This document shows positions 1,981 to 53,112 of a stretch of DNA of 60,652 bases, piece after piece (the stretch's first letter is position 1; every line of letters begins with the position of its first letter). The notes under the pieces were generated by a model. The model was not told the DNA's origin. It made no database searches and was given only the letters and a program-made list of their open reading frames with translations. The stretch covers positions 1 through 60,652 of the IMG/VR virus record IMGVR_UViG_3300017989_000126. One strand, 5' to 3'. A program made the translations under genes and the position numbers. Source of the stretch: a virus. Its lineage: Duplodnaviria > Caudoviricetes.

Positions 1981-2350
1981 TTAGTTCATCAGAAATTTAA
2001 CACATTCATTGATTACATCTTTTTTTTGACAATCAAAATCACTTTCCCAAACAACTAAAATTTCAAATCCGTTTTTTCTAGCTTTTTCTAATTTATTAAA
2101 ATCTTTTTCCCATACTTCTTTCGCTGTCATATTCCACACTCGAATAAACTCATCTTCTTTAAAATATTTTGGATTTGCGTGCCAAATATTTCCGTTAAAT
2201 TCTATAACTTTTTGTCATCAACAATTACAAAATCAAAATTTGTATTTGTGCCACATCCATATTCGTGATTTAATTCTCCAAAATAAACCCTTTTATCTTG
2301 CAAACACAATCTGTTGTATAAATCCCAAAATAGTTTTTGAGATTTCTTAG
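1981..2350 (-). pseudogene. Truncated, frameshifted Vsr/DUF559-like endonuclease remnant
   Basis: Minus strand reads ..FDFVIVDDKK(frameshift in A-run ~2209)VIEFNGNIWHANP..WEKD..K...GFEILVVWESD..FLMN*; no start found. Confidence 0.65.
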
Positions 2351-2390
2351 AATAATTTTGTCGATTAAGAGTTCAGTAATATATAACACT

Positions 2391-4550
2391 ATGTTCAAAA
2401 AATGGTTGATTGAAGAAGGCAAAAAAGAACTTGCCAAACAATTTAAACAAAAGCTACACGGTGTGCCTCAAGATCCAGATCACCACCCGGAAGGATCGGT
2501 GTTTTTTCATACACGCTTAGTTCGTAAAGCAATTCCTAATGCAATTCAAGAATTGAAATCTCTTCAACAAAACGATCCTGAACTCAGCTATGTACTTTCA
2601 AATTTGAATTTTGATCTTCCTCCAGAAGAAATGAATGTTTTGAAAATGGCAGCTTGGTTGCATGACATTGGAAAGCCTGCAACAACAACTGTTGGTGGAT
2701 TGCCTTTTTTGACACGTGCTCCATTGACTGGAAAAATACAGTCAATTGCACATCAAGATCCCAAAAACTACATGCCGGAAATTGAAGATCTGGAAAGCGT
2801 AGCCCCACCAGAAACAATTGCATTTTTCAAAAAACATGAACCTTTAATTCGATTCCTTGTCGATCACCACATGGACTTTGTGGCAGAAAAGTTTTCAAGA
2901 ACCATTGTAGATGAATTTTTCAGAGATGGAAAAATAATCAACGATGTTCGCATCAAACTTCTGCTTGCTTTAATGTGGTCTGATAAAATGGGTCGAGAGC
3001 CAGCAGAAATGGTGGTCAGAGGGATTGCAAAGAATGCTAAAAAGCTGGCTCTTTCTGCAAAGTTTGGCTTACAAAGACAAAAGAAACGAGACAATCAATC
3101 AAAGCCATTTGAAGGTGGACCAGATGCTTTCAGAGCTATGCTTCAGAAGCGTGGTGTGGATTCTGCAAGCATTGAAAAAGCGATACAAAACAAATTTGGA
3201 ACAAACGAATCATTTAGAACGTTTTTAGAAATGCAAGAAGCACAACCAACCACAATTGAAGCCAACATCCCCATGACGGACAAGGTCCATGTGGTCGCCA
3301 AACATTTAAAGAATGGCGACAATGGGGTTGTTGTGTATGCTGTTGGTGGTGCAGTACGGGATTTTCTGAATGGAGTTCAACCAAAAGACATTGACCTCAC
3401 CACCAATCTTTCTGAAGAAGATATAATCAAAAGATTAGAAACTCCAGAAGCTCGTAAAGATGGCATACGCATACATAAAAAAGAAAGTGTAGACACATTT
3501 GGTGTTGTGTTTGTGTTTGTTGATGGTCACGATTTTGAAGTTGCACCATTCCGAAAAGACATAGGCTCTGCTGATGGTCGTCGTCCTGAAGCTGTTGAAC
3601 GTGGCACTATTCAGGATGATGCTATGCGTCGTGATCTTACCATGAACAACCTCTATTATGATTTCGAGAAGAATTTGATTCTTGATTTCAATCCCAATGG
3701 GCAGGGAATAGAAGACGCACAAAATGGCGTTGCACGTCCTGTTGGCGATCCATTTGAACGATTCGACGAAGACAAAATTAGAGTATTTCGATTGGTTCGT
3801 TTCTTCTCTCGGTTTAATCCCGGAATTATCACTAATACCCTTGATGAAAGAACTCGAAAAGCTGTAGAGCATTACAAAGAAGTTCACAAACAAAAAGGAA
3901 TTTTCCCTGAGAGGATTTATGAAGAATTTACTGGTGGAATTAAACAGTCTCAAAACACCAGCATGTTCTTAAAAAGTCTTGCTGCACTTGATTTAATGCA
4001 AGCTGTATTTCCGGGAATGAATGTAGATGTTGAAGGCATTGATCGAATTGGCAACAGTAAAAAATTGGGTGTTATTTTAGCATGGTTATTGAGAAATAAC
4101 CCAAATGCCTCAAGGCAACTTAAGGCTTTAAAGTACCCTAATGTTGTCACTGATAAAGTCAATTTCCTGCATCAACTATTGGATAGATTTCAAGGGAATC
4201 CTGAAAGCATATCAAACATTCATGGTTTGATTAAACAACGTGACAGGTTCATCGATCCAAACTATGACACTGAGCAAAAAGAGCAAATGTCACAGGAAAT
4301 GAAACAGGACATTATTGAGTTCAGCCAAATGGCAGGAGTCGATTTATTGAATCTTGACCGTGCTACTCACTTTGCATCTTATAATGTGCCAAAAATTAAT
4401 GGCAATGAATTGATGCAAAGACTGGGAATTTCAGGGCCAGAAGTGGGCGCAGCAATGGATCAGGAAAGAGACAGACATTACAGTCAATCTTTCCAAGATT
4501 ACCTAAAGCAATCACTTCCCAAGTCTTCTGCGAATCGCATCCCGTCTTAA
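2391..4550 (+). CDS. cca: HD-domain / tRNA nucleotidyltransferase (CCA-adding, class II) fusion
   Basis: HHPEGSVFFHT and WLHDIGK (HD domain); VGGAVRD, DIDL, RRDLTMN, EDKIRVFR (class II NTase). Confidence 0.85.
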   Translation: MFKKWLIEEGKKELAKQFKQKLHGVPQDPDHHPEGSVFFHTRLVRKAIPNAIQELKSLQQNDPELSYVLSNLNFDLPPEEMNVLKMAAWLHDIGKPATTTVGGLPFLTRAPLTGKIQSIAHQDPKNYMPEIEDLESVAPPETIAFFKKHEPLIRFLVDHHMDFVAEKFSRTIVDEFFRDGKIINDVRIKLLLALMWSDKMGREPAEMVVRGIAKNAKKLALSAKFGLQRQKKRDNQSKPFEGGPDAFRAMLQKRGVDSASIEKAIQNKFGTNESFRTFLEMQEAQPTTIEANIPMTDKVHVVAKHLKNGDNGVVVYAVGGAVRDFLNGVQPKDIDLTTNLSEEDIIKRLETPEARKDGIRIHKKESVDTFGVVFVFVDGHDFEVAPFRKDIGSADGRRPEAVERGTIQDDAMRRDLTMNNLYYDFEKNLILDFNPNGQGIEDAQNGVARPVGDPFERFDEDKIRVFRLVRFFSRFNPGIITNTLDERTRKAVEHYKEVHKQKGIFPERIYEEFTGGIKQSQNTSMFLKSLAALDLMQAVFPGMNVDVEGIDRIGNSKKLGVILAWLLRNNPNASRQLKALKYPNVVTDKVNFLHQLLDRFQGNPESISNIHGLIKQRDRFIDPNYDTEQKEQMSQEMKQDIIEFSQMAGVDLLNLDRATHFASYNVPKINGNELMQRLGISGPEVGAAMDQERDRHYSQSFQDYLKQSLPKSSANRIPS

Positions 4551-10792: not shown

Positions 10793-10831
10793 CTTTACAG
10801 ATTGAGTAATCTGCCGTAGAATGTTTGTGTA
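10793..10831 (+). promoter_or_regulatory. Sigma70-type promoter for the NAD operon
   Basis: TTTACA (10794-99), 17 bp spacer, TAGAAT (10817-22); near-copy at 18382. Confidence 0.7.
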
Positions 10832-10877: not shown

Positions 10878-11741
10878 ATGAAACGTGTGGACCTGATCGT
10901 TATTGACGGTCAAAATGACTTCCTTGACCCAAAAGGTGCCCTTTATGTGCAGGATGCCGACAAGGAAGCAGAAAAGCTGGCGGCGATGATCGACCGTTTG
11001 GGCAACAAAATCTACAAGATTCACGCCACGCTGGACAGTCACTATCCAGTTGATATTGCTCATCCAGTCATGTGGATTGATTCACACGGAAACAATCCTG
11101 ATCCTTTCACTATCATCACAGCCGATGATGTTCGAAATGGAAAATGGCGTTGTACTCTGTTGGGTAACATTCCAGACCCAGTTACAGGTGAAACAATCAG
11201 CTATCAACAGCGTTGCCTGAACTACGTGGAAGAACTGGAAAAGAATGCACGATATCCACTGTGCATTTGGCCTCCGCACTGTCTGATTGGTTCATGGGGA
11301 CACAACGTGTATCCACCTCTTTTCGAGGCATACACACGTTGGATCGAAAAGAGTCGATCACCATGGGTTGACTACGTTGTCAAAGGCGACAACGTGTGGA
11401 CCGAACATTATTCTGCTATCAAAGCAGATGTACCTGATCCTTCTGATCCAAGAACGCAGCTTAATGCTGACCTGTTGAACACAATCAACAAAGCAGACAT
11501 TGTTCTTTGGTCTGGTTGGGCTGGATCGCACTGTCTCGCCAATACTGGCAATGATGTTGAATCATTCCCGGCTGGTGATGAAATCTACAAGAAGTCAATT
11601 CTTCTTGAAGACCTGAGTGCTCCGGTGACTTCCCCTATTACGGATGTGAATGACATGTTCGCTCAGTTGCGAACTGACTTCATCGACAACATGCGGAATA
11701 AGGGAATGCAGATCATGAACAGCACTGATGTTCTCACATAA
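10878..11741 (+). CDS. pncA: Nicotinamidase (isochorismatase family)
   Basis: IDGQNDF, D-x-H, WPPHC, VKG, SHC catalytic motifs; NAD gene context. Confidence 0.85.
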   Translation: MKRVDLIVIDGQNDFLDPKGALYVQDADKEAEKLAAMIDRLGNKIYKIHATLDSHYPVDIAHPVMWIDSHGNNPDPFTIITADDVRNGKWRCTLLGNIPDPVTGETISYQQRCLNYVEELEKNARYPLCIWPPHCLIGSWGHNVYPPLFEAYTRWIEKSRSPWVDYVVKGDNVWTEHYSAIKADVPDPSDPRTQLNADLLNTINKADIVLWSGWAGSHCLANTGNDVESFPAGDEIYKKSILLEDLSAPVTSPITDVNDMFAQLRTDFIDNMRNKGMQIMNSTDVLT

Positions 11742-11785
11742 CATCAGTCTTTCATTCACACACTTCACAATTTTGGAGAAAAGAT

Positions 11786-12535
11786 ATGAGCAGCAAAGAT
11801 TTAAGTCAGGGACTCACTGACTTCGAAGTACCGGGTGCAAATTTTGGTTTTACCGGTGCGAACATTGATGATCTTGCATCAATGGAACAGACTCTTTACG
11901 GTCTGGTTGTGGATGAAAGTGGCTCAACAATGCCATTTCGACCAGAAATGTCTAAGGCCACAGTGGCAATTGTCGATTCTCTGAGAGAGAGCCCACGGGC
12001 AGACAATCTCATGTATCGAATGACCCACTTTTCTAATGGGGTTCGTGAAATTCACGGTTTCAAAGAACTTCAGAATTGTCATCCCGGCGATTATGACGAT
12101 CTGTTTGAACAGACAGGTCAGACTGATCTTTATGATGCAACACTTGAAATGTCAGAAGCTATTCGCATCTATGGCGAAAAGCTTGCCGAACAGAGCTATA
12201 TGGCCAATGGCATTCTTGTGGTGATCACCGATGGTTGTGATTTTCCCGGCTCTACTCACGGCATGGGTGATGTCAAACGATCTTTTGAGCAGGTTATTCA
12301 GGGTGAAATTCTTGAATCCATGAACACCATTTTGCTCGGAGTCAATATTCATGAGGCTCATGTAAAGCAGAAGCTTGAAGAGTTTCATCGAGAAGCTGGC
12401 TTCACTCAGTTTGAATGTGTCGAAGACGCTTCAAAATCAACAATGGCCAAACTGGCACAGTTTGTTTCTGACAGCGTCAGTTCTCAGTCGCAGGCTTTGG
12501 GAACTGGGGGAGCTTCACAAAGTCTTACGTTCTAG
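11786..12535 (+). CDS. vWA domain protein (TerY-like)
   Basis: MIDAS DESGS, TxLYDA, ITDG. Confidence 0.8.
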   Translation: MSSKDLSQGLTDFEVPGANFGFTGANIDDLASMEQTLYGLVVDESGSTMPFRPEMSKATVAIVDSLRESPRADNLMYRMTHFSNGVREIHGFKELQNCHPGDYDDLFEQTGQTDLYDATLEMSEAIRIYGEKLAEQSYMANGILVVITDGCDFPGSTHGMGDVKRSFEQVIQGEILESMNTILLGVNIHEAHVKQKLEEFHREAGFTQFECVEDASKSTMAKLAQFVSDSVSSQSQALGTGGASQSLTF

Positions 12536-12661
12536 GAGAGTACCAACTGGGCAAGGCATTGCTTGGTTGCAGGATGAATACACGTGGAAGTTACAGTCTT
12601 CTGAATGGACTGGGTCTTAGCGGACCATGCAGGGTTCAAATCCCTGCCATCCGAAATCTCC
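12535..12661 (+). ncRNA. tRNA-like structured RNA (non-canonical)
   Basis: T-arm GCAGGG-TTCAAAT-CCCTGC; variable-arm-like GGTC..GACC; anticodon-arm-like CAGTC..GACTG; GGATG/CATCC stem; extra 5' hairpin; outer GGAGA/TCTCC stem. Confidence 0.6.
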
Positions 12662-12664
12662 TTT

Positions 12665-12702
12665 AACACACCGGGGCACCTCCCCCGGTGTGTTGTTTTT
12701 TC
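12665..12702 (+). terminator. Intrinsic terminator
   Basis: ACACACCGGGG..CCCCGGTGTGT followed by a T-run. Confidence 0.8.
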
Positions 12703-12714
12703 AGGAAAAGTGCT

Positions 12715-12762
12715 ATGAACAATCTCATCTCCAGATCGCTTTTCGACAACGACCTGTATAAG
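12715..12762 (+). pseudogene. Orphan 5' end of pncB
   Basis: MNNLISRSLFDNDLYK, compared with RSILDSDLYK at the start of intact pncB. Confidence 0.7.
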
Positions 12763-12800
12763 AATGACAAAAACTTATACAAAACAAACTACTATAGTGT

Positions 12801-13481
12801 ATGGAACATTTCATCTATGCACTAAAACAACAAGGTAGCGAATTGCCTTTCTATATTGGAAAATCAAACAATCCAAAGAAGCGGAAAAAACGCCATCTTT
12901 ATGATGCAAAGAACTTGATGCTGAATTACCCAGTTCATAACAAATTGAGAAAGCTGTTAAGAGACGGACTTGGAATTGATCTTGAAATTCTGGAATCGAA
13001 GCTAACCGAAGATGAAGTTGATGATAGGGAGGTTTATTGGATTTCTTTTTATCGTACCAAAACCAAATTGTGTAATTTAGCCAATGGTGGAGAAGGCGGC
13101 AAAGGGTTGACCGAAGAGACAATTGAAAAAATAAAGAAAGCCAACATTGGACAAAAACGATCTGAAGAAACTCGAAAACGAATAAGTGATTCCCGTAAAG
13201 GGATTGTATTTTCAAAAGAACACAAACAGAATCTTTCAAAAGCACGGAAGAAAAGAATTGTAACTGAAGAAACTCGTCGGAAAACAAGTGAAACCTCTAC
13301 TGGTTCGATTAACATCAAGAAATATAAACTTACTGATCCAAACGGTGGGATTCACTTCACTGACAGAGGGTTGTCAGATTTTTGTCGCAAGAACAATTTA
13401 ACACCAGCTAATTTGTCAAAAGTTCTAAAGGGCGAACGCACACACCATAAAGGTTGGAGGATTGAATATGTCGAACCATGA
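12801..13481 (+). CDS. GIY-YIG homing endonuclease with NUMOD3 repeats
   Basis: FIYAL..FYIGKS, R/E/N catalytic pattern, NLANGGEG, SEETRKRIS repeats. Confidence 0.9.
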   Translation: MEHFIYALKQQGSELPFYIGKSNNPKKRKKRHLYDAKNLMLNYPVHNKLRKLLRDGLGIDLEILESKLTEDEVDDREVYWISFYRTKTKLCNLANGGEGGKGLTEETIEKIKKANIGQKRSEETRKRISDSRKGIVFSKEHKQNLSKARKKRIVTEETRRKTSETSTGSINIKKYKLTDPNGGIHFTDRGLSDFCRKNNLTPANLSKVLKGERTHHKGWRIEYVEP

Positions 13482-14646
13482 CCCCGCTGTTCGATCAATA
13501 TTAGATTCGGACTTATACAAATTTACAATGATGGCAGCAGTCTTGAAGCACTACGAAAACACACCGGTTCAGTATCGATTTAGCAATCGTCGGAAAGAAG
13601 GTAAATTCAATAATGCTTTTGTTTATGAATTTGAATCTGAAATTGATCGTCTTTGTGGATTAAAAGTAGAAGATAAAGAACTAGATTGGTTTTCTAAAAC
13701 CTGTCCTTTTCTCACGGATCAGTATTTCGAATTTCTGCGAAACTACCGTTTTAACAAAAATGAACTTAGATGGTCAGTTGAAGATGGTGAATTAAACCTG
13801 TCTGTCAATAGCTCATGGGAACTAGGTATTTTGTGGGAAGTACCTCTTATGAGCATAATTTCAGAATGCTTCTTTCGTACATGTGACACTGAATGGGAGT
13901 TTAATGTTCTTGAGCAAGAAAAAAGAATTCGAGACAAAGCTAAAATTCTAACCGATGTTACATTTGCAGACTTCGGCACTCGACGCCGAAGGTCTTATGA
14001 TGTTCAAGATTTGGTTGTAAAAACACTTGTGAATTGTGCTCCAAATTTTGTAGGCACAAGCAACGTCTCACTCGCCATGAAGCACAACACCAAGCCAATT
14101 GGAACTTTAGCACATGAGTGGATCATGGCGACCAGCGTTCTCATGGGACTTCGCCACGCCAACAAGTTTGCACTGGATGCTTGGAGTGAAGTATTCAACG
14201 GCGATTTGGGAATTGCATTAACGGACACTTATGGAAGCAAAGCTTTCTTCGAGGATTTTGACGGATATCTGGCTCGATTGTTTGATGGAGTTCGTCATGA
14301 TAGCGGCGATCCTTTTGAATTTGCCAGAAAAGCGATCACTCACTACAAGTCACTGGGAATCAATCCCATGTCAAAAACCATCGTGTTTAGCGACGGTTTG
14401 ACAGCCAAACTTGCTGCGGAAATCAACGAAAGATTCAAAGATGTCATCCGATGCTCTTTCGGCATCGGAACTCACTTCACGAATGATTTCCATAACAGCA
14501 AGGCTCTGAACATGGTCATCAAACTTTGGTCTTGTGAAGGGGTTCCACTGGTGAAGTTGGGAGATGACGAAGGGAAAGCCATTGGCGATCCTGATGCCGT
14601 TCGAGTTGCTCGATGGGTGTTCAACGACAAACCACTGGACAATTAA
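13468..14646 (+). CDS. pncB: Nicotinate phosphoribosyltransferase
   Basis: DLYKFTM, DFGTRRR, GTSN, GTLAHEW, LTDTY, RHDSGDP, FSDGL, FGIGT. Confidence 0.95.
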   Translation: MSNHDPAVRSILDSDLYKFTMMAAVLKHYENTPVQYRFSNRRKEGKFNNAFVYEFESEIDRLCGLKVEDKELDWFSKTCPFLTDQYFEFLRNYRFNKNELRWSVEDGELNLSVNSSWELGILWEVPLMSIISECFFRTCDTEWEFNVLEQEKRIRDKAKILTDVTFADFGTRRRRSYDVQDLVVKTLVNCAPNFVGTSNVSLAMKHNTKPIGTLAHEWIMATSVLMGLRHANKFALDAWSEVFNGDLGIALTDTYGSKAFFEDFDGYLARLFDGVRHDSGDPFEFARKAITHYKSLGINPMSKTIVFSDGLTAKLAAEINERFKDVIRCSFGIGTHFTNDFHNSKALNMVIKLWSCEGVPLVKLGDDEGKAIGDPDAVRVARWVFNDKPLDN

Positions 14647-14647
14647 A

Positions 14648-14977
14648 ATGGAACAACTTCTCTGTCACTTGCTTGGAGACTATCTCCTGCAAACATCATG
14701 GATGGCTTTGAACAAAAGCAAGCGATGGTGGCCTGCAATTGTTCATGTGTCAATTTACACAAGCGTGTTCCTGTTGTTGACAACAAGCATCCCGGCATTG
14801 CTTGTCATTGGCGGAACACACCTGCTGATTGATCACTATCAGTTTCCCAAGATTTGGTTCAATGCAGTTCGTGGAAAAGAGGATTCCCCGGAATGGTTTC
14901 TGATGTGGCTTTACGTCATTCAGGACAACTCTTGGCATCTGATCATTAACTTCTTGGCGTTGAGGTATCTGACATGA
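14648..14977 (+). CDS. DUF3307-like membrane protein
   Basis: HLLGDYLLQT, HxxIY, THxxID, DNSWH motifs. Confidence 0.75.
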   Translation: MEQLLCHLLGDYLLQTSWMALNKSKRWWPAIVHVSIYTSVFLLLTTSIPALLVIGGTHLLIDHYQFPKIWFNAVRGKEDSPEWFLMWLYVIQDNSWHLIINFLALRYLT

Positions 14978-16950
14978 ACAAATATGGATTTGTAAGAGTT
15001 ACTGCTGTTTCACCTCGGGTTTACATTGGCAATCCAGAACAAAACCTCTTCGAAGCACATGGTGAACTTGCTCGTTCAGACGATTCAGATATTATTTTGT
15101 TTCCTGAACTCAGCATGACAGGATACACTTGCGGTGATTTGTTTGGTCAGGAAAGTTTGACTAACAATGCGTTGAAAGAAACGGTTAGGTTAGCTGATGG
15201 TGTTGGCAACCAGTTGGTTGTTGTTGGATTACCATTTGTGTTTGAATCTAATCTCTACAACTGTGCTGCTGTCTTGAACAATGGTCGCATCGTGGGGATT
15301 GTCCCCAAGCAATATTTGCCCACCTACAAAGAGTTTTACGAAAAGAGGTGGTTTCAGGCTGGTGAAGGTCTACCAAACACAGAAGTTGAAATTGAAGGTC
15401 GTGCTGTTCTTTTTGGGCCGAATCTCCTATTCAGCTACGAAGGAGTCAAAGTTGGCATTGAAATTTGTGAAGATGTCTGGATGCCCATTCCACCTAGTTG
15501 TTATCACACTATTGCTGGTGCAAACGTCATCCTCAATCTCTCTGCCAGCAATGAGACCGTTGGAAAATCTGATTACCGCACAGATTTGGTGAAAAATCAG
15601 TCTGGTCGCTGCGTGTGTGCTTATGCATACGCCAGTTCCGGGCCAATGGAATCCACCTCTGATCTTGTGTTTGGTGGACATTCTCTAATCGCTGAAAACA
15701 GTCATATTCTGGCTGAGTCACCTCGTGTGGGCAAAGGTAATCACAGTGCATCTGTGATTACAGCAGATGTTGACTATGAAAAACTGAATCATGAGAGACG
15801 CTCATCTACGTCTTTCGGTGACTCTGCATCATGTGTCACTAATCACGACACAATTCCCATTGAACTCGTAAATCGTCCTGAAGTTGTTACTCCGATCAAA
15901 CGAGTGATTGCCAAACATCCATTTGTCCCAAGTGACAAAGAGCGGTTGCGGGATCGTTGTGAGGACATCTTCGGCATTCAGACAATGGGTCTGGTGGGTC
16001 GATTGGCCAACATCAGAGGTCCAATCAATATTGGAATCTCTGGTGGTCTCGACTCAACGTTGGCATTGCTGGTTGCCATCAAAGCCTGTGATCACTTCAG
16101 GTTTGATCACAGGCGAATTCAAGGCATCACCATGCCCGGATTCGGAACCACCAAGAAGACCAAGAAGAATGCCAAGAAACTGATGAAGGGTCTGGGGATT
16201 ACTCAGAAAGAAATAGACATCAGGCCGATGGCCCTTCAGGTGTTCAATGACATGGAACACACTCCATTTGGCATCGGCAGCACACCTTTGACTTTAGAAG
16301 ACCTTCAAGGTGGGCTTGAAAGTCTTGAACCGGGTGCTCAGGACTTGGTATTTGAAAATGTGCAGGCACGTGTCAGAACCCTGACGCTGATGTCTCATGG
16401 GTTTGTTCTGGGAACCGGTGATCTCTCCGAGCTTGCTCTGGGCTGGTGCACCTACAACGGTGACCACATGAGCATGTATAACGTCAACTGTTCGATCCCA
16501 AAGACTCTGGTCAAGTTCTTGGTGGAGTATGTTGCCAACAATGATCCTGCCTTCAAAAAGGTCAAAGATACGTTGTTGGATATTGTGGACACTGAAATCT
16601 CTCCAGAACTTTTGCCACCCGGCAAAGACGGAGAGATCGCACAGTCCACAGAAGACAAACTTGGGCCTTACGAACTGCACGACTTCTTCCTGAGTCACTT
16701 CATTCGCAATGGTTCAAGCCCTCAGAAGATTCTTCTTTTGGCTTGTCAGGCATTTGAAAGTGATTACGAGCCTGACTTCATCAAAGTAACTCTCATCACT
16801 TTTTTGAAGAGATTCTTTGCAAATCAGTTCAAAAGAAATTGTGTGCCAGATGGCCCAAAAGTTGGATCAGTGAGTCTTTCGCCTCGTGGCGATTGGCGAA
16901 TGCCTTCTGACGCTGATGTCAGCATGTGGATTAAGGAACTTGAAGAATGA
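14974..16950 (+). CDS. nadE: Glutamine-dependent NAD+ synthetase
   Basis: Nitrilase triad FPEL/EKRWF/EICED; SGGLDST; ENVQARVR; GDLSELALGW; SLSPRGDWRMPSD. Confidence 0.97.
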   Translation: MNKYGFVRVTAVSPRVYIGNPEQNLFEAHGELARSDDSDIILFPELSMTGYTCGDLFGQESLTNNALKETVRLADGVGNQLVVVGLPFVFESNLYNCAAVLNNGRIVGIVPKQYLPTYKEFYEKRWFQAGEGLPNTEVEIEGRAVLFGPNLLFSYEGVKVGIEICEDVWMPIPPSCYHTIAGANVILNLSASNETVGKSDYRTDLVKNQSGRCVCAYAYASSGPMESTSDLVFGGHSLIAENSHILAESPRVGKGNHSASVITADVDYEKLNHERRSSTSFGDSASCVTNHDTIPIELVNRPEVVTPIKRVIAKHPFVPSDKERLRDRCEDIFGIQTMGLVGRLANIRGPINIGISGGLDSTLALLVAIKACDHFRFDHRRIQGITMPGFGTTKKTKKNAKKLMKGLGITQKEIDIRPMALQVFNDMEHTPFGIGSTPLTLEDLQGGLESLEPGAQDLVFENVQARVRTLTLMSHGFVLGTGDLSELALGWCTYNGDHMSMYNVNCSIPKTLVKFLVEYVANNDPAFKKVKDTLLDIVDTEISPELLPPGKDGEIAQSTEDKLGPYELHDFFLSHFIRNGSSPQKILLLACQAFESDYEPDFIKVTLITFLKRFFANQFKRNCVPDGPKVGSVSLSPRGDWRMPSDADVSMWIKELEE

Positions 16951-17804
16951 ATACAGGATCGTTTTTTACCATTGGTAGCACTCACGTTGTTTGTGAAGAC
17001 TATGCCTTACATGGGGTCGCAGAAGATCCTTATGTGATTCTTTCTGATGGCTGCTCTAACGGAGGTGTGCGAATTGATACAGACTTTGGCTCTCGGCTAC
17101 TTTGCAAATCAGCCGAGAATCATTTGTCAATATTGCCATACAATTCATTTGGATTTAAAGAACGTGTCATTAGCACAACGGTGACACAAGTGCAAACTTA
17201 TTTCAACATGGATCTTGCATGCCTTACTGCTACTTTGCTGTTGGCTAGAAAATATGATGACTTCATTTACACCATGTTAATTGGAGATGGATATATTGGG
17301 GGAAAACGACGTGATGGACGATGGATGCTTTATGAAATAGAATATGAAAAAGGAGCACCTTATTACCTTAAATACAGTTGGAATCCCAAAGACAAAGAGG
17401 CTTATTTTAATCGATTTGGAAGCATTGGAACACTTAGAACCTTTTCTTGGAGAGAAGGTGGAGATATTGAAACATCCAGTATGGAATTTGATCTGAAAGA
17501 CGATCATCCAGAGCATTTTGAATTCGATTTTAAAATTGATGAATATGAATTTGTATTCATTGCTTCTGATGGATTGAGTCGTTTTTATCATCAGGCAACT
17601 ACGCCAGATAAATCAATGATTCCCATTCCGATAACAACCGTTGTGCCTATTTTGTATGGATTCAAAGGATATCAAACGTCATTTGTCGAAAGGCAAATGC
17701 ATTGGGTCATGAACACCAAAAAGCCAAGATCACTTTCTAAAACACTGGGCGTTGATGTAAAGTGTTCAGATGATTTCAGCACCGGAGTAATTCACTGTGG
17801 CTAA
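16947..17804 (+). CDS. PP2C-like protein phosphatase (TerY-P type)
   Basis: G-x-x-H..CED, LSDGCS, IGDG, ASDG, DD motifs. Confidence 0.8.
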   Translation: MNTGSFFTIGSTHVVCEDYALHGVAEDPYVILSDGCSNGGVRIDTDFGSRLLCKSAENHLSILPYNSFGFKERVISTTVTQVQTYFNMDLACLTATLLLARKYDDFIYTMLIGDGYIGGKRRDGRWMLYEIEYEKGAPYYLKYSWNPKDKEAYFNRFGSIGTLRTFSWREGGDIETSSMEFDLKDDHPEHFEFDFKIDEYEFVFIASDGLSRFYHQATTPDKSMIPIPITTVVPILYGFKGYQTSFVERQMHWVMNTKKPRSLSKTLGVDVKCSDDFSTGVIHCG

Positions 17805-18408
17805 ATTTGCGATTTTTGGAGGATCTTTTGATCCTCCCACATATGCACATAAAATGGCTGGAGAACTTGTCTATGCTGAAACAGACATAGATCAATTCTG
17901 GTACATGCCTTGTTGCAGCCACAAATTCAATAAAGACTCTGAAGATTCTTGTCATCGATTAACCATGGTAGAAAGAATGGTTTATCAGATAAACGAGAAC
18001 TACCAAGGATTTCCTTTTCGTGAATGCACTTACGAAATCGACAACAAAACCAAAGGCCATCTAATTGAAACGATGGAAGCTTTAGAAAAAGAAAATCCAA
18101 AAGATGAATTTGTGATCGTTGTGGGTTCAGATTGTGCCAATGATATCAAGAAAAAATGGCATCGTGGCAAGGAACTTATCGAACGATATCCATTCATTGT
18201 GTTGAAAAGAAGTGGATACGAATTGTTAGCTTCTTGGCCATACGAAAAACCAAATCAGGTTTTGGAATTTGGTGTAAGCTATAGCTCAACAACGCTTCGT
18301 AAAGCTTTATCAGAAGGCGATTTTGAGCACGCTCAACGAAGACTCTATCCTGCAATTTTCAATTACATTAAGAAGAACAAACTTTACAGTCAGGAAAACC
18401 AGACGTAA
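17797..18408 (+). CDS. nadD: Nicotinate-nucleotide adenylyltransferase
   Basis: FGGSFDPPTYAH, VGSD, W, SSTTLR. Confidence 0.9.
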   Translation: MAKFAIFGGSFDPPTYAHKMAGELVYAETDIDQFWYMPCCSHKFNKDSEDSCHRLTMVERMVYQINENYQGFPFRECTYEIDNKTKGHLIETMEALEKENPKDEFVIVVGSDCANDIKKKWHRGKELIERYPFIVLKRSGYELLASWPYEKPNQVLEFGVSYSSTTLRKALSEGDFEHAQRRLYPAIFNYIKKNKLYSQENQT

Positions 18409-18420
18409 AATGTTTGTGTA
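18382..18420 (+). promoter_or_regulatory. Sigma70-type promoter for kinase-SPFH genes
   Basis: TTTACA (18383-88), 17 bp spacer, TAAAAT (18406-11), followed by GTTTGTGTA as at 10823. Confidence 0.7.
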
Positions 18421-18441
18421 CACTTTTACGGGAATACATTC

Positions 18442-20154
18442 ATGAAACTTACCATTCGAGGCACTGGTGATAAAGTCAATATCACCAAGACACATGTAGT
18501 CGCCAAAGGTGGTGAGGGTGTCATCTATATTAAAGATGGCGTTGTCTACAAAATCTGTCATGCTGGGAAAATGATTCCCGATGGAAAATTTCAAGAACTG
18601 GCTGTTCTCAATCATCCCAACATCATCAAGCCAGAGCAAGTTTTACTGGATTCTAAAGGAAAACCAGTTGGCTATACCATGAAGCTGGTTCCTAATTCAG
18701 TGCCACTTGCTCAAATTCTAACAAAATCTTACCGAGATCGAGAGAACGTTACATTCGATCAAATGGGTAAGTTAATACAGGATATTCGTGATGGCATTGA
18801 ACACATCCACTCCAAGGACATTCTCCAAGTAGATGGTAATGAGATGAACTACATGGTTTCGTTGGATTACGAAACTGTGTCATTCATTGATGTGAATAGT
18901 TTTCAAACCAAACATTATCCAGCAGAGGCTTTAATGCTAAGCGTGCGAGATTGGCACGTTGAAAAGAAAAACGGAGTCTACATTTGGACAGAGCTGAGTG
19001 ATTGGTTTTCTTTCGCAATTATCTCGTTCTACATGTGGACCGGAATTCATCCCTTCAAGGGAGCACATCCTCGTTTCAAAAATGTCAAAACGAGGATGGA
19101 AGATCAAATGAAGGCAAATGTTTCAGTTTTAAACTCTGAAACAAAATACCCTGCTGCTGCTGTTTATCCTTTTGATGTCATTCCTGATGTTTACATGCAG
19201 TGGTACAAAGCTCTGTTTGAACGTGGCGAACGACATCCGGCCCCACAGGACTTTCATGGCAAAATCCTTCTTGTCGCCAAAGTCAAAGAAATCAGTGGCA
19301 GTGATAACTTCGAAATCAAAGAAATTCATGATTTTGGGGAAATGCTGGTTGGTTTTATAGGTCGCCCCGGAACAGAGGTTTCTATTGGACCTGAACATGT
19401 GTTTGTAAATCAGGCCCCTAAGCCAAAACCATACAAGAAAATCCGTGCAGGCATTACAAATGTGATGCAAATTCCTGTCTCAGCTCATCTTGAGAACAAT
19501 ATCGTTCATTTGACAAATCTAAAAACTCAGGAAAAAATCGATTATCAAGGGAATGGAAGTGATCTGATGAGTTGCGAGGGGCGTTTGTACGTTCAAAGCA
19601 ATAATCGAATCGTTGAAATTCAATTCATTGAATCTGGCAAAAACATTATGGCGGCACCGAAAGTCGTTTGTGATATTTTGCCCAATGCAACGCAGATGTT
19701 TCAGGGAACAATCATCCAGTATCTGTTCGAAGGATACTTTGTCTCTGTATTCCCAAAATCAGGCATTGCTCAACAGTTCCATATTAAAGAACTTGATGAA
19801 TATCAAATTACTGAAGCGAAATATGAAAATGGGGTTCTGATGGTTGTTGGAATTTCCAAAGGCAAGTATGATCGCTTCGTGATCCGTTTTGAAGAAAGAT
19901 GGGGCAATTATGAAATAGCCCGTAAAATTGAAGACATCATTCCCACTGGTTTGAACTTCACAGTTCTGGAGAATGGGGTTTGTGTTTGTATTACGGAAGA
20001 AGAGAAAATCGAATTGTTCTCTTCCCGTTCGGGATCGCAAAATGTTAAATCGATCTCTGACCCGGTTATAGAAAGCGACATGAGGTTATGTCGAGTTGGG
20101 TCACAAGTTATGTTTGCCAAAGGCAACAAGCTGTTCAAGCTGTCTATGAAATAA
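18442..20154 (+). CDS. Ser/Thr protein kinase (TerY-P type) with beta-rich C-terminal domain
   Basis: KGGEG, VYK, DGNEMN, FIDVNSFQ, SDWFSF, GIHPFKG. Confidence 0.85.
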   Translation: MKLTIRGTGDKVNITKTHVVAKGGEGVIYIKDGVVYKICHAGKMIPDGKFQELAVLNHPNIIKPEQVLLDSKGKPVGYTMKLVPNSVPLAQILTKSYRDRENVTFDQMGKLIQDIRDGIEHIHSKDILQVDGNEMNYMVSLDYETVSFIDVNSFQTKHYPAEALMLSVRDWHVEKKNGVYIWTELSDWFSFAIISFYMWTGIHPFKGAHPRFKNVKTRMEDQMKANVSVLNSETKYPAAAVYPFDVIPDVYMQWYKALFERGERHPAPQDFHGKILLVAKVKEISGSDNFEIKEIHDFGEMLVGFIGRPGTEVSIGPEHVFVNQAPKPKPYKKIRAGITNVMQIPVSAHLENNIVHLTNLKTQEKIDYQGNGSDLMSCEGRLYVQSNNRIVEIQFIESGKNIMAAPKVVCDILPNATQMFQGTIIQYLFEGYFVSVFPKSGIAQQFHIKELDEYQITEAKYENGVLMVVGISKGKYDRFVIRFEERWGNYEIARKIEDIIPTGLNFTVLENGVCVCITEEEKIELFSSRSGSQNVKSISDPVIESDMRLCRVGSQVMFAKGNKLFKLSMK

Positions 20155-49733: not shown

Positions 49734-50729
49734 ATGAGTAAAAAACCAAGAACCCATGTTTTGTTTGTCGTTGACCGGTCGTCATCTATGAGCACAACCA
49801 AAAAACAAGCTGTTGATGGCTTTAATGAACAAGTTGATCAACTGAGAGAGGATTCAAAAGATCAGGACATTCGTGTTTCTCTGGTCACATTCAATGGCAA
49901 TGTCTATGAGCATTTCTGGGATCAACCAGTCGATACTCTGGAGAATGCTAAACACAAAGATTTCAAACCCAGTGGTTCCACATCATTTTATGATGCCTTG
50001 GGTTATGGAATTCAAAAACTTCAGGAAACAACAGACACTCAAGATGAGAACAATGCTTATCTTGTAATCTCAATTTCTGATGGTGGAGAAAACTCTTCAA
50101 AGTTCTACGTCAATGGAAGTTTGAAAGAAATGGTAGAAGGCTGTCAGCTTAGCAAAAGATGGACATTCACATATATGGGATGTTCTGAAGCTGTACTGGC
50201 AGAAGTTGCTCAAGCTACTTCTATTCCTGTTTCCAATATGGCTGTTTGGGCAAATCAAACAGCCGATGCTGCAACTCGTGGAATGTCTGGTACACGTAAG
50301 AGAATGAAGTCTTACATGACCAATCGAACCAAAGGCACTGTGTCTGCTGAATGTTTCTATTCAGCAGATGTTGGTACAGCTATGAACTTTTCAGACGTTG
50401 ACGAATCTTCTGTTTCTATTAACACATTTGGTAATACATCAGGAACATTTGCTGATACATCAAATTCAGTTGTTGAATCTACAGATACAGATACAGATTC
50501 GGTAAAAGATTACAATTTCGATAAGTTGCGTGAATCTCAACTTCCTGAATACACTTGTCGAAAAGCAGAAGAAAGGGGGACTATCTTTGGGTGTTCCAGC
50601 ATGGTTGAATTCAAAGGAAAAGAAGGAGAAGAAACCTCTGATTTTGAATATCCCAATGCACAAATGTGGAATTCAATGAGGCGAGGTGGTCCTGATGTTT
50701 ATCGAAAGATGACCTCTAAATTGTCTTAA
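49734..50729 (+). CDS. vWA domain protein
   Basis: DRSSSM, TSFYDALG, ISDGGENSS, WTFTYMG. Confidence 0.85.
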   Translation: MSKKPRTHVLFVVDRSSSMSTTKKQAVDGFNEQVDQLREDSKDQDIRVSLVTFNGNVYEHFWDQPVDTLENAKHKDFKPSGSTSFYDALGYGIQKLQETTDTQDENNAYLVISISDGGENSSKFYVNGSLKEMVEGCQLSKRWTFTYMGCSEAVLAEVAQATSIPVSNMAVWANQTADAATRGMSGTRKRMKSYMTNRTKGTVSAECFYSADVGTAMNFSDVDESSVSINTFGNTSGTFADTSNSVVESTDTDTDSVKDYNFDKLRESQLPEYTCRKAEERGTIFGCSSMVEFKGKEGEETSDFEYPNAQMWNSMRRGGPDVYRKMTSKLS

Positions 50730-50745
50730 TCGATATCAAACGAAT

Positions 50746-50776
50746 AAAAGCCCGGTTGTCACAACCGGGCTTTTTT
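50746..50776 (+). terminator. Intrinsic terminator
   Basis: AAAAGCCCGGTTG..CAACCGGGCTTTTTT. Confidence 0.85.
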
Positions 50777-50835
50777 ATTGAACCTCTGCAAAAAATTTGT
50801 GTCCTTGAGTAACTTATACTCTCAAGAGAATTATC

Positions 50836-51477
50836 ATGAAACATTACCCAAGCATCAATAGTGCCTCAAAGGCACCCAGAGAGCCCTGTATAGGGTTTGT
50901 GAAATACGATGGAACCAACTTCAGAGCGGAATGGTCTCGGAAGCGTGGTTGGTATAAATTTGGCGTAAGAAATCGCCTCATCGACGAAAATGAAGACATC
51001 TACGGCCCATCAATCCCATTGTTTTTGAACAAATACAGCGACGAACTGGTCAAGGTTTTCAAAGCACACAAGAAGATCAAAACCTGTCAGAGCGTCATCG
51101 TGTATGGTGAATTTTTCGGAACAAAAAGTTTCGCAGGTTCTCATATGCCCTGCGAAGACTGGGATGTGGTTTTATTTGATGTGAATCCACATAAGCAAGG
51201 GTTCATATCTCCACGGGAATTCGTTGATGAATTTGGCCATCTCAATGTCGCCGAGGTAATTTACCAAGGTGATCTCACTGATCAATTTATTGAAAACGTC
51301 CGAAACTCTGATCTTGACTTTGAATCAAAGTATAAGGTAAAAACAGAGGTTCCTGAAGGCGTGATTGTCAAAGGCGGATCAGGTCACCGGCTCTGGATGG
51401 CGAAAGTCAAATCCCTTGCCTACAAAGAAGCTCTCAAGAAAAGATATGAGGCTGATTGGATAAAATTCTGGGAATAA
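50836..51477 (+). CDS. ATP-dependent RNA ligase-like protein (Rnl2-type adenylation domain)
   Basis: KYDGTN, YGEFFG, LFDV, EGVIVK, AKVK. Confidence 0.8.
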   Translation: MKHYPSINSASKAPREPCIGFVKYDGTNFRAEWSRKRGWYKFGVRNRLIDENEDIYGPSIPLFLNKYSDELVKVFKAHKKIKTCQSVIVYGEFFGTKSFAGSHMPCEDWDVVLFDVNPHKQGFISPREFVDEFGHLNVAEVIYQGDLTDQFIENVRNSDLDFESKYKVKTEVPEGVIVKGGSGHRLWMAKVKSLAYKEALKKRYEADWIKFWE

Positions 51478-52702: not shown

Positions 52703-53112
52703 TCTGCACCTTTTCCTTCAATTAGAAACTCTCGAACTTTATCCCACCCCATGAAACCACCAAGGTTTCTGTCGTCAATGTGCCATGTTGCATGAGGCTT
52801 ACGTGTATCGCAATTATAACATGATCGAAAATCAAAATCAAGTATGGTCTCATTAACAGCATCAAACTCTATGCCATTATGCTTGCAAAAATCAACTGCA
52901 TCCTTGAGATATTGTTTGTCTATTTTATGTCGAACATCTTCTCTGCATGTCCATAAAATAAGTTTGTAACCATATTGTTGAAGTTCTTTTAAAACCTCGA
53001 AAGCTCCCGGTAACGTTTCCCCAATATCAGGAAAACTGTGCTCGACAATAGTTCCATCAAAATCAATCAACAACACGCCTTTCATTCCTCTACTCCACTT
53101 AAAGTAAACCAA
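52687..53112 (-). CDS. HAD-superfamily phosphatase (capless type)
   Basis: IDFDGT, WTCR, KP, IDDR. Confidence 0.85.
   Translation of the reverse strand: MVYFKWSRGMKGVLLIDFDGTIVEHSFPDIGETLPGAFEVLKELQQYGYKLILWTCREDVRHKIDKQYLKDAVDFCKHNGIEFDAVNETILDFDFRSCYNCDTRKPHATWHIDDRNLGGFMGWDKVREFLIEGKGAEWRLS

What the first reader, a model, noticed from the sequence alone, without database searches (positions are those of the whole stretch)
12535..12661. Non-canonical tRNA-like RNA inside the NAD operon
Seen: a perfect T-arm (TTCAAAT loop), a long variable-type arm and an anticodon-like arm whose loop reads ambiguously (CUG or UGA). It has only a 5-bp acceptor-like stem, no clear D stem and no CCA. A separate 11-bp hairpin (12544-69) and an outer GGAGA/TCTCC stem enclose it, and a strong terminator follows. 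Inference: a tRNA mimic (nuclease decoy, Y-RNA-like partner, or an RNase P/Z processing signal) rather than a decoding tRNA.
Basis: partly seen in the sequence, partly recalled or inferred. Interest (0 to 1): 0.7.

Follow-up and report, generated by a model that had tools for sequence, protein, structure and literature searches.

The report
Conserved tRNA-shaped RNA in phage operon
A giant phage carries, between two NAD-recycling genes, a small RNA that folds like a transfer RNA but breaks several tRNA rules; one related phage keeps the same fold, so it probably imitates a tRNA rather than decoding.

Summary
Window 12534-12662 folds as described: outer 6-bp stem, 11-bp hairpin, tRNA-shaped core 12572-12653, then an intrinsic terminator 12664-12695. 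It is not an ordinary tRNA. Rfam tRNA gives no hit at E<=10, tRNA-Sec scores 14.4 bits against a cut-off of 47, and ARAGORN names different anticodons in the two copies.

The core has a 5-bp acceptor and a 6-bp T stem (11 bp in all, not 12). It also has a canonical T loop, a conserved GG in the D loop, a 6-bp anticodon-like stem, a long variable arm, G at the discriminator position and no CCA.

Only one homologue was found, L014. It is 86% identical, against 48% at third codon positions of the neighbouring gene. All 9 stem substitutions are transitions and 8 keep pairing; two pairs changed on both sides. The anticodon-like loop is not conserved (UCUGAAU versus CUCAUAU).

The element plus its terminator is a present/absent cassette. 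More distant relatives carry real tRNA(CUA) genes in the same spacer.

Best reading: a selected tRNA-Sec/allo-tRNA-like mimic, probably non-decoding. Its function is untested, and the evidence rests on two sequences.

The parts
11786..12535 (+). YegL/TerY-like vWA gene. Its stop codon TAG (12533-12535) overlaps the first strand of the outer stem.
   Evidence: Translation with a DESGS MIDAS-type motif. 1017 homologues, several named YegL/vWA by their sources. phrog_7371.
12534..12539 (+). Outer stem, 5' strand (AGGAGA)
   Evidence: MFE fold. 5 of 6 pairs kept in L014. This strand is also present in L015-type relatives without the element.
12544..12569 (+). 11-bp hairpin with GGCA loop, 2 nt upstream of the tRNA-like core
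   Evidence: Two one-sided changes in L014 both keep pairing (G.U to G-C, G.U to A-U). 23/26 identical.
12572..12576 (+). Acceptor-like stem, 5' strand (GGAUG)
   Evidence: Pairs with 12648-12652. Invariant in L014.
12579..12593 (+). D-like arm: 4 bp (12579-12593, 12580-12592, 12582-12591, 12583-12590), bulged C at 12581, loop with conserved GG (12586-12587). AA 12577-12578 serves as a 2-nt linker.
   Evidence: The closing pair is U-A here and C-G in L014, a change on both sides. The L014 fold gives the same arm.
12594..12612 (+). Anticodon-like arm: 6-bp stem, 7-nt loop UCUGAAU (12600-12606; reading as anticodon UGA with C33)
   Evidence: The stem has one double change and two one-sided changes, all pairing. 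The loop is CUCAUAU and 2 nt longer in L014.
12613..12626 (+). Long variable-type arm (5 bp, loop UAGC)
   Evidence: Identical in L014.
12629..12647 (+). T arm: 6-bp stem, loop UUCAAAU
   Evidence: One G-C to G.U change in L014.
12648..12656 (+). Acceptor-like stem, 3' strand (CAUCC), then G at the discriminator position and AAA. No CCA.
12657..12662 (+). Outer stem, 3' strand (UCUCCU)
12664..12701 (+). Intrinsic terminator (13-bp stem, 8 G-C pairs, T run). With the element it forms a cassette that is absent from L015-type relatives.
   Evidence: 34/36 identical in L014. The X5 contig diverges right after 12540 into another terminator.
10794..10822 (+). The only sigma-70-like promoter match upstream (TTTACA-17-TAGAAT), before the pncA-like gene. 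It is the putative start of the transcript that ends at the terminator.
   Evidence: This is a consensus match only: 1 found against 5.5 expected in shuffles.
12715..12762 (+). Native 5' end of pncB (16 codons, ending in DLYK), 19 nt after the terminator's T run. It is cut off here by the homing-endonuclease cassette.

Best explanation
The element is a tRNA-derived small RNA that selection keeps in a non-canonical shape. It has a class-II, tRNA-Sec/allo-tRNA-like body: long variable arm, 6-bp anticodon-like stem, a D stem with a GG loop, a canonical T loop, and G at the discriminator position. Its acceptor branch is only 11 bp (5 + 6), it has no encoded CCA, and it carries an extra 5' hairpin.

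It is made as the 3' end of the pncA-like/vWA transcript, which stops at the terminator right behind it.

Inferred mechanism. The D-loop/T-loop elbow and the acceptor/T stack let it be bound by proteins that recognise tRNA shape: RNase P, the phage's own CCA-adding-family enzyme, modification enzymes, and tRNA-cleaving defence nucleases. The branch length is wrong for EF-Tu, and the anticodon loop changes freely between relatives (UGA-type here, CAU-type in L014). So it most likely acts as a tRNA mimic or decoy rather than as a translator.

Shown: the fold, its conservation with pair-preserving changes, its failure to score as a tRNA, and its cassette nature.
Inferred: transcription, processing, and the binding partner.

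About 0.7 for 'selected, non-canonical tRNA-derived RNA'; about 0.3 for the decoy mechanism itself.
For: Fold:
- z = -5.1, 0 of 200 shuffles as stable. The core and the hairpin fold the same way in both copies.

Conservation against L014:
- Element 111/129 identical (86%).
- vWA third codon positions 118/248 (48%).
- The pncA-vWA spacer 19/44 (43%).

Substitutions in the 131-column alignment: 18, plus one 2-nt indel.
- 9 fall in paired columns. All 9 are transitions, and 8 keep pairing.
- 9 fall in unpaired columns, of which 3 are transitions.
- With uniformly random substitutions, at most one broken pair occurs in about 1e-4 of trials. With transitions only the figure is 0.078.
- Two pairs changed on both sides, in the D stem and in the anticodon stem.

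Not an ordinary tRNA:
- RF00005 gives 0 hits at E<=10, while the control rings in 14 of 14 genomes.
- No Rfam family reaches gathering score.
- tRNA-Sec 14.4 bits against a cut-off of 47.
- ARAGORN calls Cys(ACA) here and Met(CAU) in L014, using different loops.

Other points:
- The anticodon-like loop holds 3 substitutions and the 2-nt indel within 7-9 nt.
- In a 98%-identical strain (run X6), all 16 listed differences lie outside 12513-12703.
- The window encodes a CCA-adding/PcnB-family enzyme (2337-4550) and an Rnl2-like RNA ligase (50836-51477).
- Passages of PMC10264068 name tRNA-Ser(tga) and tRNA-fMet among the targets of VapC-type tRNases. These are the two anticodon types seen here.
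- PMC5389517, sections 13 and 16, reports Sec-like allo-tRNAs with diverse anticodons. Some are inactive in translation and lie next to toxin-antitoxin genes.
Against: - There are only two independent sequences, so covariation is thin. In control (a), 125 of 500 shuffles reach the observed score.
- The high identity could partly reflect a recently exchanged segment. The adjacent terminator (34/36) and pncB 5' end (44/48) are even more alike, and divergence against strain X6 is patchy.
- Conditional on transitions only, the pair-preservation test is weak (P = 0.078). The structure was also derived from the window sequence itself.
- No expression data were found.
- A 5-bp acceptor may be a poor RNase P substrate. 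PMC4201824 (passages) ascribes the lack of cleavage of short-stemmed YrlA RNAs to this.
- UCA and UCU are the commonest Ser codons of the window. A related huge phage has a true tRNA-Ser(UGA) with the same C33-type loop (L090). So a decoding past, or a decoding present, is not excluded.
- The host and its tRNases are unknown.
Confidence: 0.45

Rival explanations
1. It is an unconventional but working tRNA. SerRS would charge it, because SerRS reads the long variable arm and G73 rather than the anticodon. It would be matured with CCA by the phage enzyme. It would decode UCN here, and another codon in L014. That would make it a new '5/6' cloverleaf beside the 8/4 and 9/3 allo-tRNAs.
For: - Long variable arm, G at the discriminator position, a GG D loop and a canonical T loop.
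- A 7-nt loop closed by a stem in both copies.
- UCA (14.8 per 1000) and UCU (18.9 per 1000) are the top Ser codons.
- L090 tRNA-Ser(UGA) shares the C33-type CUGAA loop.
- A CCA-adding-family enzyme is encoded in the window.
- Allo-tRNAs with non-serine anticodons insert Ser in E. coli (PMC5389517: abstract and sections 13, 16).
Against: - The acceptor branch is 11 bp. The 12-bp branch is what EF-Tu recognises (PMC5389517, introduction passage).
- No nucleotide stands between the D stem and the anticodon stem.
- The anticodon differs between two otherwise 86%-identical copies.
- There is no tRNA-model score.
- A CAU anticodon on a Ser-type body would mis-read AUG/AUA.
Confidence: 0.2
2. It is a decaying tRNA gene (a pseudogene) left in a spacer that tends to collect tRNA genes. 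It looks conserved only because window and L014 share this segment by recent recombination.
For: - The same spacer holds real tRNA(CUA) genes in L021 (64 bits) and L022 (51.4 bits), and a relic in L025.
- L015-type relatives do without the element.
- It is rare: 1 homologue among 96 vWA loci, and none in roughly 1.3 Mb of further loci or in the pattern scans.
- The neighbouring terminator and pncB 5' end are even more alike than the element.
Against: - Every helix of the core is intact in both copies. 8 of 9 stem substitutions keep pairing, and two are double changes.
- Stem substitutions are all transitions, while only 3 of 9 loop substitutions are.
- The L025 relic shows what decay looks like: the acceptor 5' strand is lost and the stems are broken.
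Confidence: 0.15
3. It is a cis-acting mRNA element with one of two roles. (a) A tRNA-shaped RNase P/Z site that trims the pncA-vWA message, leaving the 11-bp hairpin as a protective 3' end (mascRNA-like). (b) A structured leader/attenuator that, together with the terminator, sets read-through into pncB.
For: - The hairpin ends 2 nt before the predicted RNase P site.
- The terminator's T run ends 13 nt before the pncB start codon, and no promoter-like site lies between. So pncB needs read-through.
- There is a weak mascRNA-menRNA match: 20.6 bits, E = 0.09.
- In L021 and L022 a hairpin also precedes the tRNA.
Against: - A terminator hairpin already protects the 3' end, and L015-type phages use only that.
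- The mascRNA score is far below its cut-off of 42.5.
- No convincing antiterminator pairing was found. The only candidate is a 7-bp AAYACAC/GUGUGUU match of low complexity, read by eye.
- The NAD riboswitch families held in Rfam gave no hit at E<=10.
Confidence: 0.15
4. It is a Y-RNA-like (YrlA-type) partner of a Ro60/Rsr protein.
For: - It has a tRNA-like module with paired outer ends, and vWA genes lie nearby.
- Jumbo phages sometimes carry TROVE proteins with a tRNA-like partner (PMC7824862, passage).
Against: - No TROVE/Ro60 domain in any of the 74 ORFs scanned.
- No GNCGAAN0-1G motif.
- The arm order is canonical, not the YrlA arrangement in which the acceptor-like stem is a closed loop between T and D (PMC4201824, passages).
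- No Y-RNA family appears even at E<=10.
Confidence: 0.02

Closest known systems
allo-tRNAs / tRNA-Sec-like tRNAs (Mukai et al. 2017, PMC5389517; sections 13 and 16 and passages read)
   Same: Long variable arm. G at the discriminator position. An anticodon stem longer than 5 bp. A D stem-loop with a longish stem and a small loop. Anticodons that vary between close relatives. Occurrence in phages and metagenomes. Some members are reported inactive in translation.
   Different: The defining 12-bp acceptor branch in 8/4 or 9/3 form is replaced by 5/6 (11 bp). There is an extra 5' hairpin and an outer stem. The tRNA-Sec model scores only 14.4 bits, so the search that found allo-tRNAs would not have found this. 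Their sequences are in supplements I could not open.
Class-II tRNA-Ser(UGA) of huge phages (e.g. L090 204-293, minus strand)
   Same: Variable arm, UUCAAAU T loop, G73, a CUGAA anticodon-loop core with C at position 33, and a GGA start to the acceptor.
   Different: L090 has a 7/5 branch, nucleotides 8, 9 and 26, and an encoded CCA. The core model R2 scores it at only 20.3 bits, against 105-110 for the two copies of the element.
YrlA / bacterial Y RNAs (PMC4201824, passages)
   Same: A tRNA-shaped module with T and D arms inside a larger RNA whose ends pair. Known in phages. A substrate of tRNA enzymes.
   Different: No Ro60 gene, no Ro60-binding motif, and a different arm order.
mascRNA (tRNA-like 3'-end processing signal of MALAT1; Rfam RF01684)
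   Same: A tRNA-like fold at the 3' end of a longer transcript, preceded by a protective structure. No decoding role.
   Different: A eukaryotic family. Only 20.6 bits against a cut-off of 42.5. Here a terminator follows.
tRNA(CUA) suppressor genes in the same vWA-pncB spacer of L021 and L022
   Same: The same genomic position, preceded by a hairpin.
   Different: They are canonical class-I tRNAs (64 and 51.4 bits) with no sequence likeness to the element. In them the terminator precedes the tRNA rather than following it.

Membership tests
canonical tRNA (Rfam RF00005) | Scores at or above 29 bits with the tRNA covariance model | tested here: not met
   0 matches at E<=10 in the window (4 candidates scored). 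The control rings in 14 of 14 genomes.
canonical tRNA (Rfam RF00005) | 7-bp acceptor stem plus 5-bp T stem (12-bp branch), 2-nt linker, nucleotide 26 | tested here: not met
   5 + 6 bp. The AA linker is present, but the D stem abuts the anticodon stem.
canonical tRNA (Rfam RF00005) | T loop of the UUCRANY type, and a GG in the D loop for the elbow | tested here: met
   UUCAAAU and GG, both invariant in the two copies.
canonical tRNA (Rfam RF00005) | Anticodon conserved among orthologues | tested here: not met
   UCUGAAU against CUCAUAU, with a 2-nt indel. ARAGORN calls Cys(ACA) and Met(CAU).
tRNA-Sec (Rfam RF01852) | Model score of at least 47 bits; 13-bp branch (8/5 in bacteria); UCA anticodon | tested here: not met
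   14.4 bits, E = 4.8. The branch is 11 bp. There is no UCA in anticodon register. The branch rule is from PMC7609411, passages.
allo-tRNA (PMC5389517) | 12-bp acceptor branch composed 8/4 or 9/3 | tested here: not met
   5/6. No 8- or 9-bp acceptor can be drawn from the flanks.
allo-tRNA (PMC5389517) | Long V arm with G73 or U73 | tested here: met
   A 5-bp V arm and G at 12653.
allo-tRNA (PMC5389517) | Sec-like D stem-loop (long stem, tetraloop) | tested here: inconclusive
   L014: 5 bp with a bulge, plus a UGGC tetraloop. Window: 4 bp with a bulge, plus a 6-nt loop.
YrlA / Y RNA | Encoded next to a Ro60 (TROVE) gene | tested here: not met
   No TROVE among 74 ORFs of the 60.6-kb window. The rest of the genome, about 88%, was not seen.
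YrlA / Y RNA | GNCGAAN0-1G Ro60-binding motif | tested here: not met
   A regex over 12500-12720 and the L014 counterpart gave no match.
mascRNA-type RNase P/Z processing signal | Cleavage by RNase P and RNase Z that releases the tRNA-like RNA | not testable with these tools
   Only a sub-threshold model match: 20.6 against 42.5 bits.
tmRNA | A tRNA-like domain plus a tag reading frame | tested here: not met
   ARAGORN reports no tmRNA in the window, and Rfam reports none.
intrinsic terminator (for 12664-12701) | G+C-rich hairpin followed by a T run | tested here: met
   13 pairs, 8 of them G-C, a 6-nt loop, then TTTTTT.

The most novel reading that the evidence does not exclude
This is a new cloverleaf class: a 5/6, 11-bp acceptor branch on a Sec/allo-like body, with a 5' clamp hairpin. 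Huge phages would use it as a bait for tRNA-cleaving immune nucleases. The fast-changing anticodon-like loop (Ser-UGA type in one phage, Met-CAU type in the next) would track the target preference of the host's tRNase. It would sit inside an NAD+-restoring counter-defence operon, so that one transcript answers both NAD-depleting and tRNA-depleting immunity.
Probability: 0.15. Interest if true: 0.8.

Novelty: new variant of a known kind. Interest (0 to 1): 0.5.

Why it matters
tRNA mimics are a small, scattered set: tmRNA, Y RNAs, mascRNA, viral TLS, and inactive allo-tRNAs. A phage-borne one with a shortened acceptor branch and a free-running anticodon loop would add a new architecture. It would give a concrete, cheap test of the idea that phages answer tRNA-targeting immunity with decoys as well as with resistant tRNAs.

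If it turns out to be chargeable instead, it would extend the known limits of tRNA shape in bacterial translation.

It also shows that annotation by ARAGORN alone mislabels such RNAs: Cys in one copy, Met in the other.

Tried and rejected
**Searches for more homologues, all empty**
- vWA protein alone in viral contigs.
- Three DNA patterns in viral contigs. The last gave 109 stretches. The 80 fetched as loci were screened with R1, together with 9 further vWA loci. The best score was 23.6 bits, and these are ordinary class-II tRNAs beginning GGGAUGA.
- Two patterns in genome contigs.
- R1 over 99 sources, 500 kb.
- R1 over five whole viral records, 63-392 kb.
- Core model R2 over 54 sources: best non-self score 28.9 bits.
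- The 11 pncB loci from viral contigs had no tRNA and no vWA neighbour.
- Metagenome records behind L015-L017 are not held for whole-record search.

**Expression**
- No RNA holder was listed among the 12 runs. The four runs laid were DNA contigs.

**Earlier findings of the scan**

**Considered and dropped**
- A protein-coding reading. The ORFs 12375-12620 (+) and 12532-12669 (-) overlap the element, but the 2-nt indel in L014 breaks any frame.
- An NAD riboswitch or any other Rfam family.
- The ar14 match (26 bits against 58.8). It rests on the terminator's C-rich loop and is chance-level.
- A D-region/terminator antiterminator: 7 bp of low-complexity pairing, not significant by my rough estimate.
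- 8/4, 9/3 or 7/5 redrawings of the acceptor. They need A.C and A.G mismatches.

- Frame and coordinate slips, and a term-format slip, were corrected and repeated.
Full report
**Setting.** The window is a 60,652-base virus record that CheckV rates at about 12% complete. It carries T4-like structural genes: Gp23, tail sheath, gp19 and baseplate. Its only DNA relatives among named phage records are two uncultured phages of 462 and 595 kb, with short matches. So it is a fragment of a huge phage.

Around the finding lies a Preiss-Handler NAD pathway:
- a nicotinamidase-like gene, 10878-11741;
- a YegL/TerY-like vWA gene, 11786-12535;
- pncB (NAPRTase);
- DUF3307;
- glutamine-dependent NadE, 14974-16950;
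- PP2C, 16947-17804;
- NadD, 17797-18405;
- a protein kinase, two SPFH proteins and a NUDIX protein.

**The observation.** All the described pieces are present at the stated places:
- outer stem AGGAGA/UCUCCU, 12534-12539 with 12657-12662;
- an 11-bp hairpin, 12544-12569;
- a tRNA-shaped core, 12572-12653;
- an intrinsic terminator, 12664-12695, with a T run.

The 176-nt stretch folds at -72.1 kcal/mol, z = -5.1, and none of 200 shuffles folds as well. The core and the hairpin fold the same way on their own.

**Anatomy of the core.**
- Acceptor-like stem of 5 bp (GGAUG/CAUCC).
- A 2-nt AA linker.
- D-like arm of 4 bp with a bulged C, whose loop holds a GG.
- It is directly followed by a 6-bp anticodon-like stem with the 7-nt loop UCUGAAU.
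- A 5-bp variable arm.
- A 6-bp T stem with the canonical loop UUCAAAU.
- Then G, AAA, and no CCA.

The acceptor/T stack is therefore 11 bp (5 + 6), not the 12 bp (7 + 5) of standard tRNAs. PMC5389517 and PMC7609411 state that rule in the passages I read.

**Is it an ordinary tRNA? No.**
- Rfam finds nothing in the whole window at gathering score.
- The tRNA model gives no hit even at E<=10, while it rings in 14 of 14 control genomes.
- With permissive filters the best clan member is tRNA-Sec, at 14.4 bits against a cut-off of 47.
- ARAGORN does call a 97-nt 'tRNA-Cys(ACA)' at 12559-12655. That call borrows the 3' strand of the hairpin as an acceptor strand and uses another loop. In the homologue it calls 'tRNA-Met(CAU)' instead. 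The calls are not consistent.

**Homologues.**
- The vWA protein has more than 1000 relatives. I aligned the 14 closest with the query and scanned metagenome contigs (79 loci) and viral contigs (17 loci).
- Of these 96 loci, ARAGORN finds tRNAs in four: L014, L021, L022 and L090.
- L014 has a vWA 75% identical. It carries the same element at 1431-1561, followed by the same terminator and an intact pncB.
- Covariance model R1, built from the two copies, finds nothing else in 500 kb and 782 kb of loci or in five whole viral records.
- Three pattern scans of viral contigs and two of genome contigs were empty or gave only ordinary class-II tRNAs.
- The element is therefore rare. All comparative evidence rests on two sequences, plus one 98%-identical strain.

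**Is it under selection?** Window against L014:

| Region | Identical | Share |
|---|---|---|
| element | 111/129 | 86% |
| hairpin | 23/26 | 88% |
| core | 69/81 | 85% |
| terminator | 34/36 | 94% |
| vWA coding sequence | 543/747 | 73% |
| vWA third codon positions | 118/248 | 48% |
| pncA-vWA spacer | 19/44 | 43% |

- There are 18 substitutions and one 2-nt indel.
- Nine substitutions fall in paired columns. All nine are transitions, and eight keep the pair. The one break is the innermost pair of the outer stem.
- Nine fall in unpaired columns, and only three of those are transitions.
- Random substitutions would leave at most one broken pair in about 1e-4 of trials. With transitions only, the figure is 0.078.
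- With the revised D arm, two pairs changed on both sides: D stem U-A to C-G, and anticodon stem A-U to G-C. 98.8% of cells pair, against 28-47% when partners are slid by 1-3 columns.

Caveats:
- Two sequences give little power. In one search, 125 of 500 shuffles reach the observed score.
- The structure was read from the window itself.
- The neighbouring terminator and pncB 5' end (44/48) are even more alike. A recently shared segment could explain part of the identity.
- In run X6 a 42-kb contig is about 98% identical over 11700-12762. None of its 16 listed differences falls in 12513-12703, but its differences are patchy.

**What varies.** The anticodon-like loop takes 3 of the 18 substitutions and the only indel. 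It reads UCUGAAU in the window (UGA in anticodon register, C at position 33). It reads CUCAUAU in L014 (CAU register, 7-bp stem). A decoding tRNA would not be expected to change its anticodon between copies that are otherwise 86% alike.

**Cassette nature and neighbours.**
- A contig of run X5 matches 12506-12540 exactly and then runs into the L015-type sequence, which has a different terminator and no tRNA-like RNA.
- So the element plus its terminator is present or absent as a block, and its left border lies just after TAGGAGAG.
- The 5' strand of the 'outer stem' lies outside that block and also stands in phages without the element. This weakens the case for the outer stem.
- The pncA-like/vWA/pncB order recurs in 24 of the 96 loci, not de-duplicated.
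- In two of these (L021, L022; vWA 47-48% identical) the same spacer holds a genuine tRNA with anticodon CUA, at 64 and 51.4 bits.
- L025 holds what looks like a broken relic of that tRNA.
- The spacer thus collects tRNA genes. The relic shows what decay looks like, which is unlike the intact helices here.

**Transcription context.**
- The only promoter-like match nearby is at 10794-10822, before the pncA-like gene. This is a consensus match only.
- The element lies between the vWA stop codon and the terminator, so it would be the 3' end of that transcript.
- The T run ends 13 nt before the native pncB start (12715), with no promoter-like site between. pncB therefore depends on read-through.

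**Other tRNA-related genes.** The window encodes a 737-aa CCA-adding/poly(A)-polymerase-family enzyme. Its head domain scores E = 8.5e-22, and the best solved relatives are CCA-adding enzymes. It also encodes an Rnl2-like RNA ligase. A CCA-less tRNA-shaped RNA could therefore be matured by the phage itself; this is inference.

**Comparison with known kinds.**
- *Allo-tRNAs and tRNA-Sec (closest in shape).* Shared: long V arm, longer anticodon stem, Sec-like D arm, G73, diverse anticodons, presence in phages. Some members are inactive in translation and lie next to toxin-antitoxin genes (PMC5389517, sections 13 and 16). But their defining 8/4 or 9/3 12-bp branch is not met.
- *YrlA-type Y RNAs.* Excluded by three tested features: no TROVE gene in the 74 ORFs scanned, no Ro60-binding motif, and a different arm order.
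- *mascRNA.* A functional analogy only (20.6 bits).

**Mechanism.** I commit to a non-decoding tRNA mimic. The conserved parts are those that tRNA-shape readers use: the elbow, the acceptor/T stack and the V arm. The parts needed for decoding are off-standard or unconserved: the branch length and the anticodon.

A decoy for tRNA-cleaving defence nucleases is the most attractive specific role. The two loop types correspond to tRNA-Ser(UGA) and tRNA-fMet(CAU), both named as VapC-type targets in the passages of PMC10264068 that I read. The element also rides in an operon that could restore NAD+.

That last link, and the statements that SerRS ignores the anticodon and that RNase P measures the acceptor/T stack, rest on general knowledge and the cited passages, not on tests here.

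**Rivals.**
- A working Ser-type tRNA of a new 5/6 form. UCA and UCU are the top Ser codons, and L090 has a true tRNA-Ser(UGA) with the same C33 loop.
- A pseudogene carried along by recombination.
- A cis-acting processing or attenuation element.

**Verdict.** This is a real, structured, apparently selected tRNA-derived RNA that fits no curated family. It is a new variant of the tRNA-mimic / allo-tRNA kind. The function is open and the evidence base is thin (two sequences, no expression data).

Noticed in passing
window 12715-13540; L013 3180-4030: A GIY-YIG/NUMOD homing endonuclease gene (12801-13481) sits inside pncB with no intron or intein.

The native pncB start (12715-12762, 16 codons ending DLYK) is cut off. 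A complete pncB with its own start (13468) and its own ...DLYKFTMM follows, overlapping the endonuclease stop. A second, donor-type LYK-coding half-site lies at 12773-12782.

A 98%-identical strain (run X6) and L014 run straight on from DLYK into FTMQQA... without the endonuclease. The pncB now in place is only 44% identical to L014's over residues 9-99.

L013, an unrelated viral contig, has a homologous endonuclease (42% identity), the same DLYK-coding remnant and a full pncB.

This looks like homing into the DLYK-coding site by a cassette that brings a replacement 5' end, or a whole replacement gene.
   Followed up: partly
window 10878-20154; loci L014-L109: The order nicotinamidase-like / YegL-type vWA / pncB recurs in 24 of 96 loci found through the vWA protein, many on contigs of 100-600 kb.

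In the window the block also holds NadE, NadD, PP2C and a protein kinase. vWA + PP2C + kinase resembles the TerY-type triad; that name is recalled, not tested.

What a vWA protein does in an NAD salvage block is unexplained.
   Followed up: partly
L021 3283-3357; L022 1093-1163; L025 about 2150-2235: Amber-suppressor-type tRNAs (anticodon CUA) lie in the vWA-pncB spacer of two related phage contigs: 64 and 51.4 bits with the tRNA model. Both vWA genes there end in TGA. L025 has what looks like a decayed copy. This hints at TAG recoding in that clade. In-frame TAG codons were not checked.
   Followed up: partly
window 2337-4550: A 737-aa protein whose residues 328-708 belong to the CCA-adding / PcnB nucleotidyltransferase family. 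It has a roughly 330-residue N-terminal extension of unknown kind, apart from a faint HDIG match (E = 0.006).
   Followed up: partly
window 49734-51477: A second vWA protein (331 aa) is directly followed by an Rnl2-like RNA ligase (213 aa). This may be an RNA-repair pair.
   Followed up: no
window 53082-54521 (- strand): A phage-encoded sensor histidine kinase. It has an ethylene-receptor-like N-terminal domain (ETR1_N, E = 3e-25), PAS, HisKA and HATPase domains. This is unusual cargo for a phage.
   Followed up: no
L090 204-293 (- strand): A canonical tRNA-Ser(UGA) of a related huge phage has the anticodon loop CCUGAAA, that is C rather than U at position 33. The window element shares this oddity.
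   Followed up: no
window 12664-12700: The terminator gives a sub-threshold match to the alphaproteobacterial sRNA ar14: 26 bits against 58.8, E = 0.005. The match comes from its C-rich CACCUCC loop region. I judge it to be chance.
   Followed up: partly
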